From positions 32,001 to 96,000 of IMG/VR virus record IMGVR_UViG_3300005731_000013: a stretch of 64,000 nucleotides of DNA. One strand, given 5' to 3'. The stretch's first letter is position 1. Each line of letters begins with the position of its first letter. The stretch comes from a virus. The translations under genes and the position numbers were made by a program. Positions 43,620-51,323 of this stretch are shown one piece after another. Under the pieces are notes generated by a model that saw nothing but the letters and a program-made list of their open reading frames with translations, had not been told where the DNA came from and did no database searches.

Positions 43620-44462
43620 TTGGCTGAAAATCCACTTAAACAGTATTCTAAACGTCCAGGGACATTTGTATCATTGCCGTCAGACGGGAAATTTTATACT
43701 GTGCCACCTGAAATGTCAGCTGACGGAGAAATCGAGATCCGCCCAATGACTGCTAGTGATGAAATCAAACTAAAAAATCCTGATGGGCTAATGAATTCTG
43801 AATCATTGTTTCAAGTTATTGAACATATTGCTCCTGGAATCGCAAATGCAAAAGACATTCCTACTCCAGATTTAGATATTATTGTCATAGGGATGCGGTT
43901 AGCAACCTATGGTCAATTTATGGATGTGAATGTCACATGCAAAAATTGTTCTCATACCGAAAACTATCAAATCAATTTGTCAAATGTATTGGCAAGTGCA
44001 GGAAAAATTACTGCGCCTGATAAAGTTAATGTAGGGGGGTTGGTTGTATCGATTCGTCCACATACGACAGAATCAAATACCATGTATTCAAATTATCAAG
44101 TTGAACTATTACGCGCTGCTAGAATGGTTGAAACTAATGTAATGGAAAATAAAGAACCTCTTAATAAACAATTGGCCGAAATTATGGCGAAAGGATCACA
44201 AATTTTATATGAAATTGCAATGAATCATGTCACATCTGTAATGATGCCTGATGGCAATAGTATAACTGATAAATCATTGATTAAAGAATGGTTAGCTGAT
44301 TTAGCTGCGCCTGACTATCAGTTGGTCCGTGACGCAGTTAATGCATTGAGCAAAGAACAGATTGACCGTAATGTGTCATTCCATTGTACTCAATGTGAGA
44401 CTGAAAATAAGGTCGAAGTATCATTTGATCCTGCAAATTTTTTCGGAGCCAGCTCGCTTTAA
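43620..44462 (+). CDS. gp26: Baseplate hub / tail assembly chaperone gp26-like
   Basis: NPL..Y..RP...LPS.G..Y, RPMT..DE, R.ATYG, two CxxC pairs; TTG start. Confidence 0.75.
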   Translation: MAENPLKQYSKRPGTFVSLPSDGKFYTVPPEMSADGEIEIRPMTASDEIKLKNPDGLMNSESLFQVIEHIAPGIANAKDIPTPDLDIIVIGMRLATYGQFMDVNVTCKNCSHTENYQINLSNVLASAGKITAPDKVNVGGLVVSIRPHTTESNTMYSNYQVELLRAARMVETNVMENKEPLNKQLAEIMAKGSQILYEIAMNHVTSVMMPDGNSITDKSLIKEWLADLAAPDYQLVRDAVNALSKEQIDRNVSFHCTQCETENKVEVSFDPANFFGASSL

Positions 44463-44710
44463 CAACAAGTTATAATGAGGTCCAAGAGCTGGTTCAAAAA
44501 TATGAGACGCAAACAGATTTGTTCATTAAAGATTTAATGCGTATCAGTGTATTAGGACCTGTGCCATACGAAGATGTAGTCAATATGACACCAAAAGAAC
44601 GAAAAATATTATCAGATGTATTACAAGAACGAGCAGATGCACAGAACCCAAACAAAAAGACACAACAGCTAGAACCAGGTGTTGTGTCAGGACCAGTACG
44701 GAATTTATAA
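44441..44710 (+). CDS. gp51/gpT-like C-terminal extension, probably reached by -1 frameshift
   Basis: -1 frame open from 44429 through slippery TTTTTTC (44438-44444); YEDVVNMTPKERKIL motif. Confidence 0.6.
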   Translation, partial: FRSQLALTTSYNEVQELVQKYETQTDLFIKDLMRISVLGPVPYEDVVNMTPKERKILSDVLQERADAQNPNKKTQQLEPGVVSGPVRNL

Positions 44711-44759
44711 GAAGTTTAATAGATCATTCAGGCAGAACTTCGTCAACCGTATAATATTT

Positions 44760-45380
44760 TATCTTGTTTACAATGATGCTTCGCATCATTGGCTGATTGA
44801 TAAATCGACTTTCATTCACTTCGTTCATTCAAGTCATTTATCTTCAGCTTTTTTAAAGATATCGAAATATATTTTATTATGATTAATTTTTCGAATATAT
44901 ATGATAATCATATATCATTTTCCAGAACTAATAACCACACTTTGCCTAGATCAGGCAAAGTGTGGTCAAAGATTCAGAGTTATTTTCCGTCACCAACTCA
45001 GCAAGCTGAGCCACTCTGTAATAAAACAACCTTATATAGCCAGGTAAGGGCGGTTGAGCGATACCCTTTTATGTTTAGCTTTATCAACGCGGGAACATAT
45101 AACAATATTACAGCTTTGTTATACTACCTCTAGGATCCTAGCGTGTGAGGAGAGCCTAGTCATTTTTGATTTGTCAAATCAATGCATTTAGACTGCGGCG
45201 CGCCAGATCTGTCAATATAAGAATATCTTATATAAACTCAAGACGGGTCAAACCAGTGTTGCCGCTATAGCAGGGTTCTGTGGAAGGGTTCTGTATTAGC
45301 ATGTGTTAGCTGCTAGGAAATCTTCATATTATACACATAAGACTTAAATGTGTTTGAATATCATAGTTAAACGATAATAT
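44760..45380 (-). ncRNA. Candidate large structured non-coding RNA (alternatively an origin region)
   Basis: No credible ORF over about 700 bp; many hairpins; sigma70 promoter TTGACT-N17-TAAACT at 45387-45415. Confidence 0.5.
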
Positions 45381-45386
45381 TTTACC

Positions 45387-45415
45387 AGTTTAACAACATT
45401 TGTATTATTAGTCAA
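45387..45415 (-). promoter_or_regulatory. Sigma70-type promoter firing into the non-coding region
   Basis: TTGACT-N17-TAAACT with extended TG. Confidence 0.6.
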
Positions 45416-45427
45416 CAGAAAAATACA

Positions 45428-45856
45428 TTATTTCTTTGGTATTGTGACATCTTTGACATGATTTCGATGAATCTTACCACCTATAAAACTGTTATGATAA
45501 TCTGAACGCAATAATACATCTCTTATGATTTGCTCACGTAGCTCTATATATGACATTTCGCCTTTGCTGTTACACAAATGTAAAATTTCACGAATATAAT
45601 TATCGCCACCATTTGTTTCAACTAATAATTTTAATTCTTCAGAAGAACCGTAATATGATTTCCAATCGGATTCTTTAATTACGGTTCTTTTGCGTTTTTT
45701 GCCTTTTAACGGAGGAATTTTACGAGTTGACCAAAATAATTTTTTACCGATATATTTCATACCCGTAGTTTTTTCAGTAATCAAATAAACAAAACCAACC
45801 CAATTTGAAAGTTCATCCATAGAAGGCTTAAATTCTTCACCATTGTATATCCACAT
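45428..45856 (-). CDS. Minimal GIY-YIG nuclease-domain protein
   Basis: GFVYLIT...KYIGKK, YYGSS, REIL, E...Q, YHN; no C-terminal DNA-binding module. Confidence 0.8.
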   Translation of the reverse strand: MWIYNGEEFKPSMDELSNWVGFVYLITEKTTGMKYIGKKLFWSTRKIPPLKGKKRKRTVIKESDWKSYYGSSEELKLLVETNGGDNYIREILHLCNSKGEMSYIELREQIIRDVLLRSDYHNSFIGGKIHRNHVKDVTIPKK

Positions 45857-45888
45857 GCACCTATTTATATGGTATACAATTATGTTTA

Positions 45889-46137
45889 TCAGATGTTGTT
45901 ATTGATTCTATCTGCCAAGATAATACTAATATTTTCTGAATCTACAACTTCATTTGAGCTTTCTTTATTATGGTCATTTTCTGGCGTTAGATACTTGCGA
46001 TACAATGTATCATTAATAAAATCATTATAATATTTTTGATAGGCACTAGTTCTAGCATCAGTATCATTATACTTCCAATCATAACCCTCCCCTCTCCAAA
46101 TATTAGAACTAGTAATTATATTGCTATTGTTTTCCAT
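45889..46137 (-). CDS. Hypothetical protein
   Basis: 82-aa ORF, SD AAGGA. Confidence 0.5.
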   Translation of the reverse strand: MENNSNIITSSNIWRGEGYDWKYNDTDARTSAYQKYYNDFINDTLYRKYLTPENDHNKESSNEVVDSENISIILADRINNNI

Positions 46138-46152
46138 TTTATATTCCTTTAA

Positions 46153-48720
46153 TTATTCAGTATTACTTATTTCAAATGATGTAAACCCATTTTCTTTTAC
46201 AACATTCAAAATTTTATGAATTCTCCCAACAAGTTCTTCTCTGTGTGAAATTAGGAAAATATTCTTATTACGCTCTCGATTCATTTTCTTCAAAACCAAA
46301 AGCGCACTTTCTACACCGTTTTGGTCTAAACCACTATCAATAAGTTCATCAATAGCCATAAAGTCAATAGGCATATTTGTACATTCATGAACATCACGGA
46401 ACGCCCAACTTAGTCCAAGAATGAGTCGATTGCGCTCACCTCTACTTAGATTGTCAAAATCCAAATCACGTCCTAATTCAGTAATTTCTACTGACAGGTC
46501 ACTTTGGAAGATAACCTCATGTGGCAGACCTAATTTAGTTAGATAATAATTCAATCTCAAATTCAAATATTGTAAATTTTGTTCAATAATGCGTTTACGA
46601 ACAAAGCTATCTTTGTTGGTCAACAATTTCAGCAAGAAATCTTGGTGCTCGCGCAAATTGTGCAACTCATTCATTGTTTCCCAGTCAATTTCTTGAATCC
46701 CACTCTGCTCCAAAATTTCAATTTGATCGCAATATGGATCTTCAGCATTCATTGTTGATTCTAATTGGTTTTGTAATGATGTCAATTGACTTTGTTGTTC
46801 ATATGCTTCTTGTGCAGTAGCATATTTTGTGACAGGAATTGAAGGCTGAATTACGATGTTATCTAATTTAGAAGATAATTCAACAGTTGCTTCATTATAT
46901 TGGCTAATCAAATTATCAAAATCAGCAACAGCCGCGGCCTTTGTTTGCATGATTTGTTCATGTTGCTCATCATGAATATCTTGGCCGCAAGCGTAACATG
47001 TATGCTCTTTAGCAGCATTTAGATCATTCAATGCCTTTTCTTTAAGGCGTGATTCTCGTTGAATACTTGCTTCTAACGTAGCAATTTCTTTTTTAATTTC
47101 CGCACTTTCAGCATGTTTACGATTATATTCTTCTAAATCGATATGTTGTTGTAGCTCATGTTCTAAATCAAGTTTTGACAGGAAATCAATTGATTTAGTC
47201 AATAATTCGATTTCTTCGTTATTCTTATTAGCCCATACCCGCTGTCTTCGTTTTAAATCTGAAATGCTTTTTTCAATTTGCTCATTAGCATTTTTGATAC
47301 CATTAATACGAAATTCTTCTTCTTTGATTTTATCTTTTGTGTTTTTCAATAACTCTCGTAACACAACAGCTTTTTCACTTAGCATTGTTATGCCTAGCAA
47401 ATTCTCAATAATTTCCCGTTGATCATTTGCTCGTAATGCAAGAAATGGTTCATTATATGTGTTCAATGCAACCAAATGTTTGAACATTAAATGATTCATG
47501 CCTACTACTTTTTCAATTTCAAGTTGGGTTAATCTTGATTCGCCTTGTCCTTCATCAGTTTCTTCAACATTTACACCATCTACTAAAAATCGCAATACAT
47601 TAGGACTGCGCCCCCGTTCAATTCGATAATGGGTCTGATTTATATCAAATTCAACAGTCACCAACATACCTTTTGAATTTGTCTTGTTGATTAAATTATT
47701 CTTCTTAATATTACTAATAGCATTGCCATATAATGCATAGCTCAATGCATTTACCATAGTGGTGTTATGAGTTACAATAAAATCATCAGTAATATATAGA
47801 TGATCTGGATGATTGATCATGATACACTGTGCTTTATCTTTTCCAATGAATTTGATATCAGTGATTTTCAGACCATTTGTATTATCTGTATTGGTCAATC
47901 TATCCTTCAACGTTGGATCAGTTACAAGTGACTGCAAGTCATTATGTTTTATATATAGGTGATTGACGCCATCAACTTCATCTATATTTACAATCCCACC
48001 AACACTGCGAATCAAAAATTGCAAGTCATGTGCTAATAATTTATCATATGTAGAATAACGAAGAATCTTGCTATCACAAAACCCATTTACATCCATTAAA
48101 CCTTGAATCAATGCTTTCCGTTGTGACAATGATGCAAATTTATAAGGACCAATCAAATTATAGCCGATTGGCGAGGTTCTATAAACTAAATCATTATTTC
48201 CTAATAATACACCAGTTGAATATGGATCTGCAGGCAGGATAACGTGAAAAATATCATCTATTGGGTCCACCAAAGGAATAAACATTTCATTCTTGACATC
48301 AAGATTCATGATTTCAGTTGTAGACAATGTCATATATTCTGTAGGATCATCAAAAGAATTTGACTTAACATTCCATAAATGATCTCCACAAGCATGAGTT
48401 TTTCGTCCATCCTCAAATGTTAATTCATAAATGTCAACCATACCTTGAGGAAAAATACCAATTACAGATGCATTTTTGCCATCCGGAGTAGATACTACAT
48501 CATGAAGTTTGATATCACCCATGGTCGTCCAACCCTTAGGTGTGTGAATCTTGCTATATAGCGGTTGTGCTTTGCCTACACCATTTCTTGACCCATCACC
48601 TCCAAGATCCAGGTTATTACCTAATACAAGTGTCAATCCTGAGTCTTCAAAATTAATTGCTTGGGTGATGTTGCCAACACTCAAAAAGTTTTTAATTGTT
48701 ACATTTTTGATTTTGATCAT
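46153..48720 (-). CDS. gp46: Recombination exonuclease subunit gp46 (Rad50/SbcC) containing an intein
   Basis: KNFLSVGN, Walker A NGVGK|T interrupted, Zn hook CYACGQ, LSRGE signature, IDELID, ISH. Confidence 0.93.
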   Translation of the reverse strand: MIKIKNVTIKNFLSVGNITQAINFEDSGLTLVLGNNLDLGGDGSRNGVGKAQPLYSKIHTPKGWTTMGDIKLHDVVSTPDGKNASVIGIFPQGMVDIYELTFEDGRKTHACGDHLWNVKSNSFDDPTEYMTLSTTEIMNLDVKNEMFIPLVDPIDDIFHVILPADPYSTGVLLGNNDLVYRTSPIGYNLIGPYKFASLSQRKALIQGLMDVNGFCDSKILRYSTYDKLLAHDLQFLIRSVGGIVNIDEVDGVNHLYIKHNDLQSLVTDPTLKDRLTNTDNTNGLKITDIKFIGKDKAQCIMINHPDHLYITDDFIVTHNTTMVNALSYALYGNAISNIKKNNLINKTNSKGMLVTVEFDINQTHYRIERGRSPNVLRFLVDGVNVEETDEGQGESRLTQLEIEKVVGMNHLMFKHLVALNTYNEPFLALRANDQREIIENLLGITMLSEKAVVLRELLKNTKDKIKEEEFRINGIKNANEQIEKSISDLKRRQRVWANKNNEEIELLTKSIDFLSKLDLEHELQQHIDLEEYNRKHAESAEIKKEIATLEASIQRESRLKEKALNDLNAAKEHTCYACGQDIHDEQHEQIMQTKAAAVADFDNLISQYNEATVELSSKLDNIVIQPSIPVTKYATAQEAYEQQSQLTSLQNQLESTMNAEDPYCDQIEILEQSGIQEIDWETMNELHNLREHQDFLLKLLTNKDSFVRKRIIEQNLQYLNLRLNYYLTKLGLPHEVIFQSDLSVEITELGRDLDFDNLSRGERNRLILGLSWAFRDVHECTNMPIDFMAIDELIDSGLDQNGVESALLVLKKMNRERNKNIFLISHREELVGRIHKILNVVKENGFTSFEISNTE
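47764..48570 (-). mobile_element. Cis intein (269 aa), Ala1 class-3 type, with degenerate LAGLIDADG domain
   Basis: AQPLYSKIHTP...DHLW...GLMDVNG...AQCIMI...YITDDFIVTHN followed by Thr+1. Confidence 0.88.
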
Positions 48721-50269
48721 TAGTCCAGTTCCATTCAGTTTTTCCTGAATCCCATATTCTTAGAATGCCTGCATTGTCCATCATTTCTTTTTCAGTTAAA
48801 ATACAGTTATAATGTTCAGGTAATTTTAGTTTTATTTGTTGTTTTGTGAAATGGCTGCAATGTTTTAATTCACCATTAAATAGATATTGATATGACGGAG
48901 GAAGAGTCTTGCCTTTTGTGAATTTACATTGAGAATACACATCTCCAGTAAACCAATCATTCATTGAAAAGCTTACAACATTGTTAAATTTGAGTTCTTT
49001 TTGCGCATGAGCAAATGTTTTGCTGAATAACCCTGGGTGTGTTTTGTTATCAGTTGCCCAACGTTTGAGTTCAAATCTCCTAGATTGTCTTGACCCTCTT
49101 GTCCAGCCAAATGTCATAACTCCGATTAAATTATTTTGCTTGTCATATGCACCCCAATAACTTGTGCTTATAACAAAGCTTTGTAAATGATATTTATTTA
49201 AAAACTTCCTGGCACTTTTGGCGTCAATTTTAGAAATATAACATTGACGCGCCCCTATACCTTTTTGCTTGATATGCACATGTGTTTTGATTAATTCAAT
49301 AATTTTTTCTTTTTGTGTATGCCAAGTTGATTCAGAAATTTGTAATAACGTTATATTTTGATCTTTACATTTTTGCCATTTGTTATAATGATAATCTTTA
49401 GATTTGAACAAATCACTATGCCAATAATCGCCATTACATTCAATAGCTAAATTATAATCAGGTAAGTAAAAATCTAACTCTTGGGGATGAATAATATTGC
49501 GGTCATTGAACACAATATTAGTCAAATTTAAATTATCCAATACTGCTTTAATTTCTGTTTCAAAATTGCTACAATAAAATTTAAAATCTATGTCGTATTT
49601 TTTAATATGATTATATACAGTATATTGATCAACACCTAGTTTTTTAGCAACATTCAAAACTGAATTATGTTTAAGTAATTCAGTTAATTGTGATTCATCT
49701 AATAGGATTTGTTTTGCGAGGTCAGATATATGTTGCTGACTTGGATGACCATTATATCTTGCATGATTGGATTGTAATGTTTTTTGTTTGATAATATCTG
49801 CTTGGGCAGGATTTAATACACCATATTTTTCTAAAGTTGTTTGCTGTGCTTTATATTTTAAAGAATCTGATTGCATAGCATATTCTACATCATGTCGGTC
49901 CAACATTGTAGATTTGAATTTAGATTTTAACAATTCAGATTGTAATGCATGTTCATGGCCATAACGTTCAGTCATTGTAAATTTGAATTTAGATTTTAAC
50001 AATTCAGATTGTAATGCATGTTTATGACCATAACGTTCAATCATAGTGTTATTTTTTGCAGTTTTAAATGATTCACTATTTGCACGACATTTTGCAGAAC
50101 AAAATGATGCGTAGTTTTTTCTCTGCCATTTTACAATATTATTGCATTCAATACAAGTAGGAATATGTGCGATATCATTTATTAAATGCCAAACAATTTG
50201 ACGAGCATTAGTTGAATTAACAATATTATCATCCAAGGCTGAATAATCAATATCAGATAAATCTGACAT
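48692..50269 (-). mobile_element. Hef/Vsr-like endonuclease-GNAT, copy 6
   Basis: FCSAKC, ERYG repeats, ELDFYLPDYNLAIECNGDYWHS, WDSGK; overlaps the gp46 start. Confidence 0.85.
49904..50041. repeat. 69-bp tandem duplication inside endonuclease copy 6
   Basis: Two units about 65/69 identical, encoding ERYGH(K/E)HALQSELLKSKFK(F/S)TM. Confidence 0.9.
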
Positions 50270-50303
50270 TGTTAACCGACTCTTATCCCACAACTTGTTT
50301 AAA

Positions 50304-51323
50304 TTATAAGTTATTATATATATCCATTAATAATTTTTGACTAATAATGTCACTTTCAACAGATTGCAATTGATTATATACAATTTGATCTACACTTTCG
50401 ACAATTATTTCGCCATTGTTGACGGTTTCTGCTGAAATTTCTTCTTTCTTCATAGGAACAAGACTTAATTCACGAGGATTAAATTGTGCCATAAATGTTT
50501 CTTTAATAAAGTTAGCTTCTTCGTAACTAATAGGAACATCAAGCATTGTTCTGCAATAAGTTTTATCATTCAGGTAGTCCTCAGGTGCATCAATTAAATC
50601 ACTAAGATTAATGCGAATGTAGCGCGGGCCGTCATAATTGACATAAGTTGGTTCACCTCCCCACTCTAAAAACATGCAACCACGGTCGTCATCCCATGCA
50701 TCAGCATAGTTATGTGCAAAAGGACTACCTAAATAATGAACTTTTTCTCGAATTTGTCGTTTATGGAAATGTCCTGAAAACACATAGTCAGCAGCATGGA
50801 AGTCAGCAGTTTGCAACTCACCATAGTCTGGCATTTCTACAATTGCGTTCATCATAAAATGTGGCAACTCAAAATGTCCAAAAACATATTTACTTTTGAG
50901 CTTTTTCATTTTTTTCCATTCATCACCAATTAACCAAGGAACAAGAGCAACATTACCTTGTTCTAAAATATCATCATTGATGATGTGAATATTTTCAAAT
51001 AATTCGCCATACGGAAAAGAATTGATTTCACGTTTTTCCCTATAGAATAAGTCGTGATTACCAACCAACATATAGATATCATCAAAAGCATCACTTAATG
51101 CCTTAAGATTGCTGACTGAGTAATTTAATGTAGACACATTGACACTTGACCTATTATGATGTAGATCACCAAGAAAAATGCACGTCTCACAACCACGTGC
51201 TTTAGATTCTTTGATAAACCAAGTTACAAATTCTTCACAATCAATGTTGTGTGTGCGACTGTTATTACGGTAGCCGAAATGTATGTCTGTGAAACATGCG
51301 GCGTGTTTAAATAAATTTGACAA
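50304..51323 (-). CDS. gp47: Recombination endonuclease subunit gp47 (Mre11/SbcD)
   Basis: TDIHFG, LGDL, VGNHD, GHFE, SGHFH phosphoesterase motifs. Confidence 0.93.
   Translation of the reverse strand: MSNLFKHAACFTDIHFGYRNNSRTHNIDCEEFVTWFIKESKARGCETCIFLGDLHHNRSSVNVSTLNYSVSNLKALSDAFDDIYMLVGNHDLFYREKREINSFPYGELFENIHIINDDILEQGNVALVPWLIGDEWKKMKKLKSKYVFGHFELPHFMMNAIVEMPDYGELQTADFHAADYVFSGHFHKRQIREKVHYLGSPFAHNYADAWDDDRGCMFLEWGGEPTYVNYDGPRYIRINLSDLIDAPEDYLNDKTYCRTMLDVPISYEEANFIKETFMAQFNPRELSLVPMKKEEISAETVNNGEIIVESVDQIVYNQLQSVESDIISQKLLMDIYNNL

What the first reader, a model, noticed from the sequence alone, without database searches (positions are those of the whole stretch)
44930..45856. Minimal GIY-YIG nuclease followed by a promoter-driven, highly structured non-coding region: candidate RNA-associated nuclease system or new large ncRNA
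Seen: the only long non-coding stretch in an otherwise dense genome. It is GC-richer than its flanks, has a sigma70 promoter (45387-45415) on the same strand as the nuclease, and contains many stems: a 14-bp stem at 44934-44966, ctcagc/gctgag nested in cagagt/actctg, ccttat/gtaagg, tataacaa/ttgttata, ctaggatcctag, ttgatttg/caaatcaa, tataaga/tcttata, a possible long-range gcggc/gccgc pair, and a doubled agggttctgt. The adjacent 142-aa GIY-YIG protein lacks a DNA-recognition domain. Inference: a 450-600 nt RNA that may scaffold or guide the nuclease (by analogy with nuclease-associated RNAs such as omega/HEARO), or an independent large phage ncRNA or ribozyme.
Basis: partly seen in the sequence, partly recalled or inferred. 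Interest (0 to 1): 0.8.

Follow-up and report, generated by a model that had tools for sequence, protein, structure and literature searches.

The report
Large structured phage RNA beside nuclease gene
The gap after the small GIY-YIG nuclease gene of this uncultured jumbo T4-like phage encodes a real, roughly 400-nucleotide, heavily base-paired RNA. It is a divergent branch of an uncharacterised RNA family found in at least 120 related phage contigs, part of which Rfam lists as the Polynucleobacter-1 motif.

Summary
Window 44915-45317, minus strand, is a conserved structured RNA of about 400 nt.

- **Covariation:** in 10 syntenic relatives 94% of cells pair, and 41 of 88 pairs show compensatory changes, against 21 in shuffles and 8-12 in slid controls.
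- **Strand:** 73 G·U against 7 A·C cells place the RNA on the nuclease's strand.
- **Family:** Rfam gives no hit here. A more distant syntenic clade (at least 113 viral contigs) carries a homologous ~420-nt RNA whose 5' domain is Rfam RF01718 (Polynucleobacter-1, function unknown). That motif is therefore part of a much larger jumbo-phage RNA.
- **Promoter:** the proposed sigma-70 promoter is no better than chance and is not conserved. In relatives the upstream ORF ends within -26 to +37 nt of the RNA, so co-transcription is likely.
- **Nuclease link:** it is real but not exclusive. 87 of 102 distant loci have a short GIY-YIG gene abutting the RNA. The RNA also follows PDDEXK_15 or long Seg-type genes. 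The 80 closest GIY-YIG homologues have no RNA, and GIY-YIG genes arrived beside it at least three times.
- **Unexplained:** two boxes flanking the 3' hairpin covary by identity (96 of 96 scored, and 9 of 9).

Best reading: an independent, compactly folded phage ncRNA in the resolvase/nuclease slot. A guide-RNA role is unlikely. Expression could not be tested.

The parts
44915..45317 (-). Structured RNA gene, about 400 nt, read 45317 -> 44915
   Evidence: Conserved at 69-73% DNA identity in syntenic relatives, with tblastx hits in all frames. 15 helices; 41 of 88 pairs are compensatory. G·U 73 against A·C 7.
45295..45317 (-). 5' hairpin: UAGC stem with an 11-nt loop (relatives GGCUAAUAUAG). The loop can pair with the 3' tail (helix 1: 45306-45311 with 44926-44931).
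   Evidence: Alignment A4. Helix 1 has 90.7% of cells paired, with one-sided changes only. The loop resembles the first hairpin loop of RF01718, GGCcaauaUcu. This is by inspection only.
45195..45265 (-). 5' domain core: long-range helix GCGGC/GCCGC enclosing CGUC/GGCG and the hairpin 45215-45233
   Evidence: Helices 2-4. Helix 2 has a G-C to A-U swap in 4 of 9 sequences. All pairs of helices 3 and 4 are compensatory.
45167..45182 (-). Hairpin with a conserved UGACA loop
   Evidence: Helix 5: all 4 pairs are compensatory.
45092..45159 (-). Central helices 6-9: CUAGG/CCUAG, UCC/GGA and the variable hairpin 45097-45124
45046..45068 (-). Signature hairpin AAGGG-UAU-CG-CUCAAC-CG-CCCUU, followed by the invariant CCUGGCUAUAnAAGG (45030-45044)
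   Evidence: Nearly invariant in clade 1. Model R1 finds the same hairpin at the syntenic place in L085 and L086, where it reads GAGGUACCGGAnnACCGCCUC.
44982..44996 (-). Box 1: UUGGUGACGG-A-AAAU
   Evidence: The direct-repeat partner of box 2. The variable base N (A, U or G) is identical in both boxes in 9 of 9 clade-1 sequences.
44932..44968 (-). 3' terminal hairpin, 15-17 bp, ...CACUUUGCC/GGCAAAGUG...
   Evidence: helix 15. Several U·G cells on the minus strand would be C·A on the plus strand. The clade-2 nhmmer profile has its only significant (E < 0.001) hit in the 64-kb window here (44918-44963, E 3.8e-4).
44917..44931 (-). Box 2 and 3' tail: UUAGUUCUGG-A-AAAU
45318..45427 (-).
   Evidence: No counterpart in relatives.
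45428..45856 (-). Short SegE-type GIY-YIG nuclease gene, 142 aa, catalytic domain only
   Evidence: Pfam PF19835, E 1e-35. Alignment A8. The only copy in the 168-kb record.

Best explanation
**What it is.** Window 45317 -> 44915 (minus strand) encodes a compactly folded non-coding RNA of about 400 nt. It is a divergent branch (clade 1, 9 distinct sequences) of an RNA family of uncultured jumbo T4-like phages. The main branch (clade 2, at least 113 contigs) has the Rfam motif Polynucleobacter-1 (RF01718) as its 5' domain.

**Where it sits.** The gene lies at the 3' end of the minus-strand recombination cluster (gp47, gp46, small ORFs, a nuclease gene, then the RNA). It is convergent with the baseplate-hub genes.

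**How it is made (inferred).** It is probably read through from the upstream nuclease gene. In relatives that ORF ends within -26 to +37 nt of the RNA, or overlaps it, which leaves no room for a promoter.

**How it folds (partly shown).** The multi-helix fold appears to be closed by pairing of the 5' hairpin loop with the 3' tail.

**What it does (inferred, low certainty).** It acts in trans as a stable RNA or RNP. Two identical single-stranded boxes flanking the terminal hairpin would be read by one common partner.

**Relation to the GIY-YIG gene.** The neighbourhood is best explained by position. This is the resolvase/nuclease slot of this phage supergroup, filled in turn by PDDEXK_15, EndoVII, RusA-like or GIY-YIG genes. 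Some of these look like free-standing homing endonucleases that settle beside a highly conserved sequence.
For: **Real RNA**
- 94.1% of cells pair. 41 of 88 pairs are compensatory, against 20.8 +/- 2.7 in shuffles (0 of 500 reach it) and 8-12 in slid controls.
- The minus-strand consensus fold is -85 kcal/mol, the plus-strand fold -62.
- G·U 73 against A·C 7.
- No coding signal: tblastx hits fall in all six frames.

**Family**
- Pattern and profile searches give 9 distinct clade-1 sequences.
- Model R1 finds the signature hairpin at the syntenic site of L085 and L086.
- That pattern occurs in at least 120 viral contigs.
- RF01718 scores 73-121 bits on the 5' part of those RNAs.
- The clade-2 profile has its only significant (E < 0.001) window hit, E 3.8e-4, on the 3' hairpin and tail.

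**Co-transcription**
- Distances between ORF end and RNA are given. In L090 and L092 the PDDEXK stop codon lies inside the RNA's 5' hairpin.

**Independence from the GIY-YIG protein**
- The clade-1 upstream gene is PDDEXK_15 in 4 loci, short GIY-YIG in 2 and long GIY-YIG in 2.
- Clade-2 exceptions exist.
- 80 of 80 closest GIY-YIG homologues lack the RNA and are followed by another ORF at a median of 44 nt.
- The tree shows at least three origins of RNA-adjacent GIY-YIG genes.
- GAP32, PA5oct and Atu_ph07 share the hub ... gp46-gp47 neighbourhood. GAP32 has EndoVII and PA5oct a RusA-like gene there, on the other strand than here. Atu_ph07 shows no annotated resolvase in that interval.

**Boxes**
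-.
Against:
- No cultured phage carries the RNA.
- The tight, overlapping junction with a nuclease ORF holds in all 8 clade-1 loci with upstream sequence and in 85% of clade-2 loci. Repeated independent arrival of nuclease genes at exactly this junction could equally mean a functional tie.
- The RF01718 model does not score the window or any clade-1 RNA. Homology therefore rests on the 3' half, on synteny and on the shared architecture.
- Helices 1 and 13 have no compensatory support.
- The trans-acting RNP role is inference only.
Confidence: 0.55

Rival explanations
1. The RNA is a functional partner of whichever nuclease is encoded just upstream. It could be a cis or trans regulator, an inhibitor (antitoxin-like) or a scaffold. 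Made on the same transcript, it would restrain or localise a nuclease that lacks its own DNA-binding domain.
For: - A nuclease ORF abuts the RNA in 87 of 102 clade-2 loci and in all 8 clade-1 loci with upstream sequence. The stop codon often lies inside the RNA.
- Flanks on both sides vary while this junction stays tight.
- Weinberg et al. 2010 (PMC2864571, supplement) independently noted that most Polynucleobacter-1 RNAs lie downstream of one gene family.
- The short nuclease has the catalytic domain only.
Against: - Three unrelated or distantly related nuclease types precede the same RNA.
- In five loci an ORF of no known family sits between the GIY-YIG gene and the RNA. In four loci (L132, L182, L184, L199) no nuclease gene was recognised within about 1.5 kb upstream.
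- The nuclease family is common without the RNA.
Confidence: 0.22
2. An RNA-guided GIY-YIG nuclease, analogous to OMEGA systems. The RNA would supply target recognition, with the two identity-covarying boxes as the specificity element.
For: - The RNA overlaps the 3' end of the nuclease ORF on the same strand, as with TnpB and its RNA (general knowledge).
- The boxes vary between phages but are identical within each RNA.
Against: - No long variable guide-like segment.
- The boxes share only 7-10 nt, and complementary sites are not enriched in about 1 Mb of flanks (9 found against about 16 expected).
- The same RNA occurs with PDDEXK nucleases, and the nuclease occurs without the RNA.
- No Rfam HEARO or OMEGA hit.
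Confidence: 0.04
3. The conserved sequence works mainly at the DNA level or in cis. It could be a replication origin, a homing-endonuclease target, or a 3'-UTR stabiliser or terminator block between convergent operons.
For: - It lies between convergent transcription units.
- A GC-UUC-GC / GCGAAGC stem-loop with a covarying stem lies nearby (44771-44791).
- Homing-type nuclease genes cluster at the site.
Against: - Fifteen helices with strand-specific G·U wobble, and many invariant unpaired bases over 400 nt, are far more than a terminator or a protein-binding site needs.
- Being a homing target is compatible with the best explanation and is not an alternative to it.
Confidence: 0.08
4. A diverged member of a known catalytic or housekeeping RNA class that the models missed: group I intron, RNase P, tmRNA, GOLLD, ROOL or HEARO.
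For: - Its size, its multi-domain fold and its neighbourhood of homing-type nucleases recall intron-like elements.
Against: - No Rfam match at E <= 10 for the region, and none for eight relatives.
- ARAGORN finds no tmRNA or tRNA.
- The RNA does not interrupt any gene. The flanks are a complete ORF upstream and non-coding DNA downstream.
Confidence: 0.05

Closest known systems
Polynucleobacter-1 RNA motif (Rfam RF01718; Weinberg et al. 2010, PMC2864571)
   Same: - The distant syntenic homologues of the window RNA carry this 141-nt motif as their 5' domain (73-121 bits).
- Both come from short contigs binned into MAGs labelled Polynucleobacter, Flavobacteriales or Bacteroidetes; RF01718 itself was described from fresh-water/estuary samples.
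- Both lie downstream of one small gene family, as the original supplement noted.
- The first hairpin and its 11-nt loop look alike.
   Different: - The window RNA and all of clade 1 fail the RF01718 model.
- The published motif is 141 nt and was scored as probably cis-regulatory. Here it is one domain of a 400-420-nt RNA that lies 3' of its neighbour gene, in jumbo T4-like phages.
Large structured RNAs of unknown function linked to phages (GOLLD, ROOL) and HEARO/OMEGA RNAs
   Same: - Several hundred nucleotides, many covarying helices, conserved unpaired bases, phage context.
- For OMEGA RNAs, also the placement next to a nuclease gene.
   Different: - No sequence or structure match in Rfam.
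- The neighbouring nuclease is GIY-YIG or PDDEXK, not RuvC or HNH.
- No guide segment identified.
Free-standing homing endonuclease genes of T4-like phages (seg and mob genes)
   Same: - SegE-type GIY-YIG genes, long and short, lie in an intergenic slot beside a highly conserved sequence.
- Presence is patchy among close relatives, and the genes have several independent origins.
   Different: - In clade 2 the short form is monophyletic and retained in 85% of loci, which looks more like a fixed gene than a selfish one.
- Cleavage of the RNA gene was not tested.
Type III toxin-antitoxin RNAs (ToxI/ToxN)
   Same: - An RNA with repeated identical boxes is encoded next to a nuclease gene on the same transcript.
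   Different: - ToxI is a tandem array upstream of an endoribonuclease gene. Here a single complex RNA lies downstream of DNA-nuclease-type genes, with only two short boxes.

Membership tests
Rfam RF01718 Polynucleobacter-1 | Scores at or above the family's gathering threshold (37 bits) with the Rfam covariance model | tested here: not met
   No RF01718 match at E <= 10 in window 44400-45600. None at E <= 5 in eight clade-1 loci. Clade-2 loci score 73-121 bits.
Rfam RF01718 Polynucleobacter-1 | Lies downstream of the small gene family noted by the describers (GOS11034; here taken to be the short SegE-type GIY-YIG, an equation not verified) | tested here: met
   GIY-YIG ORF 45428-45856 lies directly upstream on the same strand. 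The same holds in 87 of 102 clade-2 loci.
Extended phage RNA family (RF01718-bearing ~420-nt RNAs, defined here) | Signature hairpin GGUAnCG...ACCGCC, and a 3' hairpin ...UUUGCC/GGCAAAGUGUG flanked by two identity-covarying boxes, at the hub/gp46 locus on the gp46 strand | tested here: met
   model R1; nhmmer E 3.8e-4; boxes; synteny.
SegE-type GIY-YIG nucleases (Pfam PF19835) | Profile match above the cut-off, with GIY/YIG, Glu and Asn positions conserved | tested here: met
   123.1 bits against a cut-off of 25. Invariant Y24, Y35, G37, E105 and N122 in A8. The PDB sequence search found nothing.
Free-standing Seg homing endonucleases | C-terminal DNA-binding domain, and cleavage of the nuclease-less allele near the insertion site | tested here: not met
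   The window protein ends after the catalytic domain. Relatives L089 and L094 have a ~170-aa extension with CxxC...HxxxC. Cleavage is not testable with these tools.
OMEGA/HEARO-type guide RNAs | Association with IscB, TnpB or Cas-type RuvC nucleases, and a variable guide at one RNA end | tested here: not met
   The neighbours are GIY-YIG or PDDEXK genes. No Rfam HEARO hit. No guide found: the boxes share 7-10 nt, with no enrichment of complementary sites.
Group I introns | Interrupts a host gene; Rfam intron core | tested here: not met
   No Rfam hit. No split ORF: the downstream region is non-coding, with indels that are not multiples of three.

The most novel reading that the evidence does not exclude
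The RNA and the nuclease encoded just upstream form one module in which the RNA programmes or restrains the nuclease. The two boxes that covary by identity would be the specificity element. This would be a first RNA-dependent GIY-YIG/PDDEXK system, in jumbo phages.
Probability: 0.1. Interest if true: 0.9.

Novelty: new variant of a known kind. Interest (0 to 1): 0.66.

Why it matters
Complex-folded RNAs of several hundred nucleotides with unknown function are rare, and past examples have led to new biochemistry. Four points came out of this work:

- A 2010 Rfam motif treated as a short, probably cis-regulatory bacterial element is one domain of a 400-420-nt RNA of uncultured jumbo T4-like phages.
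- The family has a second branch that Rfam cannot see, and the window's RNA belongs to it.
- The RNA sits at a fixed locus, welded to a nuclease-gene slot.
- Two boxes covary by identity, which ordinary RNA folding does not explain.

The box pattern gives a concrete handle for experiments on function.

Tried and rejected
- **Rfam:** gathering and E-value searches of the window and of eight relatives gave nothing relevant.
- **ARAGORN:** no tRNA or tmRNA.
- **Cultured phages:** BLASTN of the region and of a clade-2 RNA against 50,697 phage records gave no match.
- **GIY-YIG homologue loci:** BLASTN and nhmmer of the window RNA and of the clade-2 profile against 80 such loci gave no RNA.
- **False pattern hits:** one viral-contig hit (L100) was a GC-rich coding chance match. 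115 of 120 hits in prokaryote assemblies were chance matches in GC-rich genomes; only 5 short MAG contigs are real.
- **Model R1** on GAP32, PA5oct and Atu_ph07 loci: no hit.
- **Coding readings rejected:**
  - the 84-aa plus-strand ORF 44879-45133 has no family hit;
  - the 34-aa minus-strand ORF 44724-44828 lies in a stretch where relatives have indels that are not multiples of three;
  - the block 44733-44752 is not in a consistent frame with the small plus-strand ORF.
- **Translational bypass (gene-60-like)** as a reading of the boxes: rejected. No ORF reads into box 1 consistently, and the box spacing of 47-58 nt varies freely.
- **Reverse-transcriptase template-jump reading:** no RVT_1 gene in the 168-kb record.
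- **CsrA-type GGA sites:** rejected, because many boxes lack GGA.
- **PDDEXK_15 elsewhere in the record:** none, but the record is only about 46% complete.
- **My earlier reading of 44771-44791 as a C(UUCG)G tetraloop was wrong.** It is GC-UUC-GC, which is GCGAAGC on the other strand.
Full report
**Context**

The window is part of a 168-kb IMG/VR virus record, about 46% complete. It belongs to a jumbo T4-like phage. Its portal protein is about 52% identical to those of Atu_ph07, Phosso and PA5oct.

Gene order around the finding:

| Coordinates | Strand | Feature |
|---|---|---|
| 43620-44462 | + | baseplate hub (T4_baseplate) |
| 44519-44710 | + | 63-aa ORF |
| 44711-45427 | | 717-nt ORF-free gap |
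| 45428-45856 | - | SegE-type GIY-YIG gene |
| 45889-46137 | - | 82-aa ORF |
| 46153-48720 | - | gp46-like SbcC/Rad50 |
| 48692-50293 | - | HNH/Mom-like endonuclease |

The gap therefore lies between convergent transcription units, downstream of the nuclease gene.

**The observation**

GC is 0.40-0.41 in the core against 0.27-0.30 in the flanks. Single-sequence folding is only mildly better than shuffles, with z -2.2 on the minus strand and -3.1 on the plus strand. The sigma-70-like site 45415-45387 is a 9-of-12 match in a region where such matches are at chance level: 15 found against 10.1 +/- 3.5 expected.

**Comparative proof**

Loci found through the hub protein (L083, L084) keep the gap at 69-73% DNA identity. 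That is as high as the flanking coding DNA, and tblastx hits fall in all six frames.

A conserved 20-mer pattern and a metagenome scan raised the set to 9 distinct sequences plus one partial.

- **Strand from the consensus fold:** -85 kcal/mol with 89 pairs on the minus strand, against -62 kcal/mol with 69 pairs on the plus strand.
- **Covariation on alignment A4:**

| Measure | Observed | Shuffled | Slid controls |
|---|---|---|---|
| Cells paired | 94.1% | 83.6% | 34-43% |
| Pairs with compensatory change (of 88) | 41 | 20.8 +/- 2.7 (0 of 500 reach it) | 8-12 |

- **Strand from wobble pairs:** in the helices with compensatory support there are 73 G·U cells and 7 A·C cells. The RNA is therefore read from the minus strand, the strand of the nuclease.

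The RNA spans about 45317 -> 44915 (coordinates).

**Anatomy (window coordinates, minus strand)**

- 5' hairpin, 45317-45295.
- A 5' domain closed by GCGGC/GCCGC (45261-45265 with 45195-45199).
- A hairpin with a conserved UGACA loop (45167-45182).
- Central helices (45092-45159).
- The nearly invariant hairpin AAGGGUAUCGCUCAACCGCCCUU (45046-45068), followed by CCUGGCUAUAnAAGG.
- Hairpin 44996-45011.
- The 15-17-bp terminal hairpin (44932-44968).

Helix 1 (5' loop with 3' tail) and helix 13 have only one-sided changes and are tentative.

**A larger family, and a link to Rfam**

A covariance model of the central domain (R1) found one element in the more distant syntenic loci L085 and L086, where the hub protein is about 30% identical. 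That element is the signature hairpin, at the same place and on the same strand, with changed stem bases: GAGGUACCGGAnnACCGCCUC.

L085 and L086 share a conserved non-coding stretch of about 420 nt there. 99 unique full-length copies align over the whole length.

Rfam identifies the 5' 140 nt of these RNAs as RF01718, Polynucleobacter-1, at 73-121 bits. The describers knew 16 examples and noted two things: the 3' half was not always detected, and most examples lie downstream of one small gene family. They found none in sequenced phages (PMC2864571 supplement). No other paper in the library mentions the motif.

The window RNA and all of clade 1 fail RF01718. Homology to clade 2 rests on four points:

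- synteny and strand;
- the R1 hits;
- the clade-2 nhmmer profile, whose only significant (E < 0.001) hit in the 64-kb window is 44963-44918, minus strand, E 3.8e-4;
- the shared architecture of the 3' half, including the boxes described below.

I put this homology at about 85%.

No cultured phage has either form. In prokaryote assemblies only five short MAG contigs carry it, from Polynucleobacter, Flavobacteriales and Bacteroidetes bins. I read these as probably mis-binned phage DNA.

**Relation to the nuclease**

- **Clade 2.** 87 of 102 loci with upstream sequence have a short GIY-YIG ORF (140-171 aa, 37-56% identical to the window's). It ends -26 to +37 nt from the RNA. The distances to gp46 and to the hub gene vary by kilobases.
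- **Clade 2 exceptions.** PDDEXK_15 precedes the RNA in L117, L111 and L191; in the last two an RNase H gene lies between. In five loci an ORF of 234-283 aa with no known family (one has only a sub-threshold Pfam match) is inserted between the nuclease gene and the RNA. In four loci no nuclease gene was recognised within about 1.5 kb upstream.
- **Clade 1.** The upstream gene is PDDEXK_15 in four loci, and its stop codon lies inside the RNA's 5' hairpin. It is short GIY-YIG in two (the window and L087), and long Seg-type GIY-YIG with a zinc-finger-like tail in two.
- **GIY-YIG without the RNA.** The 80 viral loci whose GIY-YIG proteins are closest to the window's (55-67% identity) have no such RNA. 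The next ORF follows after a median of 44 nt.
- **Nuclease tree.** It covers 60 sequences: 28 sampled at random from each large group, with the RNA-less set pre-selected as the best hits to the window protein. Clade-2 proteins form one group (100/100). The window plus L087 pair nests among RNA-less proteins (97/90). The long forms lie far away.
- **Cultured relatives.** GAP32, PA5oct and Atu_ph07 share the hub ... gp46-gp47 neighbourhood. GAP32 has an EndoVII gene and PA5oct a RusA-like/PDDEXK-type gene between hub and gp46, on the other strand than here. Atu_ph07 shows no annotated resolvase in that interval. None has the RNA.

My reading is that the RNA arose next to the resolvase/nuclease slot of this phage group. 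Different nuclease genes have since occupied that slot, some of them homing-type. A specific RNA-GIY-YIG machine is unlikely. A looser functional tie to whichever nuclease is upstream cannot be excluded.

**Transcription**

Relatives leave no space for a promoter between the ORF and the RNA, so co-transcription with the nuclease gene is inferred. Upstream of the window's GIY-YIG start there is a perfect T4 late-promoter consensus, TATAAATA (45865-45872, minus strand). It is absent from clade-2 loci.

**Unexplained: the boxes**

Two single-stranded boxes flank the terminal hairpin and covary by identity, not by complementarity.

- **Clade 2.** The boxes read ACUC-XX-AU-R-A-W and AUCU-XX-AU-R-A-W. 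XX is GG in 48, AG in 39 and GC in 9 sequences. Among the 96 sequences in which both boxes were found, none is discordant. Mutual information between the twin positions is 0.5-0.97, and no column covaries in a complementary way. Spacing is 47-58 nt.
- **Clade 1.** The boxes read UUGGUGACGG-N-AAA and UUGGUUCUGG-N-AAA. N is A, U or G and is concordant in 9 of 9 sequences. In the window they lie at 44982-44996 and 44917-44931.

This pattern implies that one partner reads both sites (a protein, or a nucleic acid in trans), or that the boxes are alternative partners of a third element, or that a copying mechanism keeps them alike. I could not decide between these. Bypass, reverse-transcriptase and CsrA-type readings were examined and dropped.

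**Verdict**

This is a real, large, structured phage RNA. It is a new, Rfam-invisible branch of a family known only as an uncharacterised short motif. The own-promoter claim and the guide-RNA reading are not supported. Function remains inferred.

Noticed in passing
window 46153-48720 (-): The gp46-like protein is 855 aa. Its orthologue in L097 aligns to residues 1-50 and 320-849 contiguously, so residues about 51-319 are an insertion next to the P-loop. This N-terminal part (about residues 18-177) hits PHROG families annotated as helicase loader, primase and large terminase, which fits an intein (my inference).
   Followed up: partly
window 48692-50293 (-): A 533-aa HNH/Mom-like homing-type endonuclease gene lies upstream of gp46 (overlapping its start), just before the next minus-strand ORF (50304-51323, 339 aa, probably gp47). 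This is a second mobile-looking nuclease in the same cluster.
   Followed up: no
window 45865-45872 (-): A perfect T4 late-promoter consensus, TATAAATA, lies just upstream of the GIY-YIG ribosome site. It is not present upstream of clade-2 GIY-YIG genes.
   Followed up: partly
window 44771-44791 and 44733-44752: A stem-loop with a GC-UUC-GC core (GCGAAGC on the minus strand) has a stem that covaries in relatives. In clade 2 the same motif lies on the RNA's own strand, just after box 2. A conserved 20-nt block, CAGAACTTCGTCAACCGTA, lies beside it and is in no consistent reading frame.
   Followed up: partly
window 44519-44710 (+): The small ORF after the hub gene is 63 aa here and 71-83 aa in relatives. 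In the window stop codons close the frame before the conserved block, so the C-terminus differs.
   Followed up: no
L103:6043-6848 (Cronobacter phage GAP32, same locus): An unannotated gap of about 800 nt between the hub module and EndoVII is conserved at 68-80% identity over about 500 nt in 62 Rak2/121Q-like jumbo phages. BLAST reports 4-5 matching places per genome. It shows no similarity to the RNA studied here.
   Followed up: partly
L111 and L191 (clade-2 loci): An RNase H gene (139 aa, Pfam E 1e-44) lies between the PDDEXK_15 gene and the RNA, about 380-390 nt upstream of the RNA.
   Followed up: no
L090 and L092 (clade 1): The stop codon of the PDDEXK_15 ORF lies inside the RNA's 5' hairpin loop (GCUAAUAU). 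In L092 the ORF runs about 35 nt into the RNA.
   Followed up: partly
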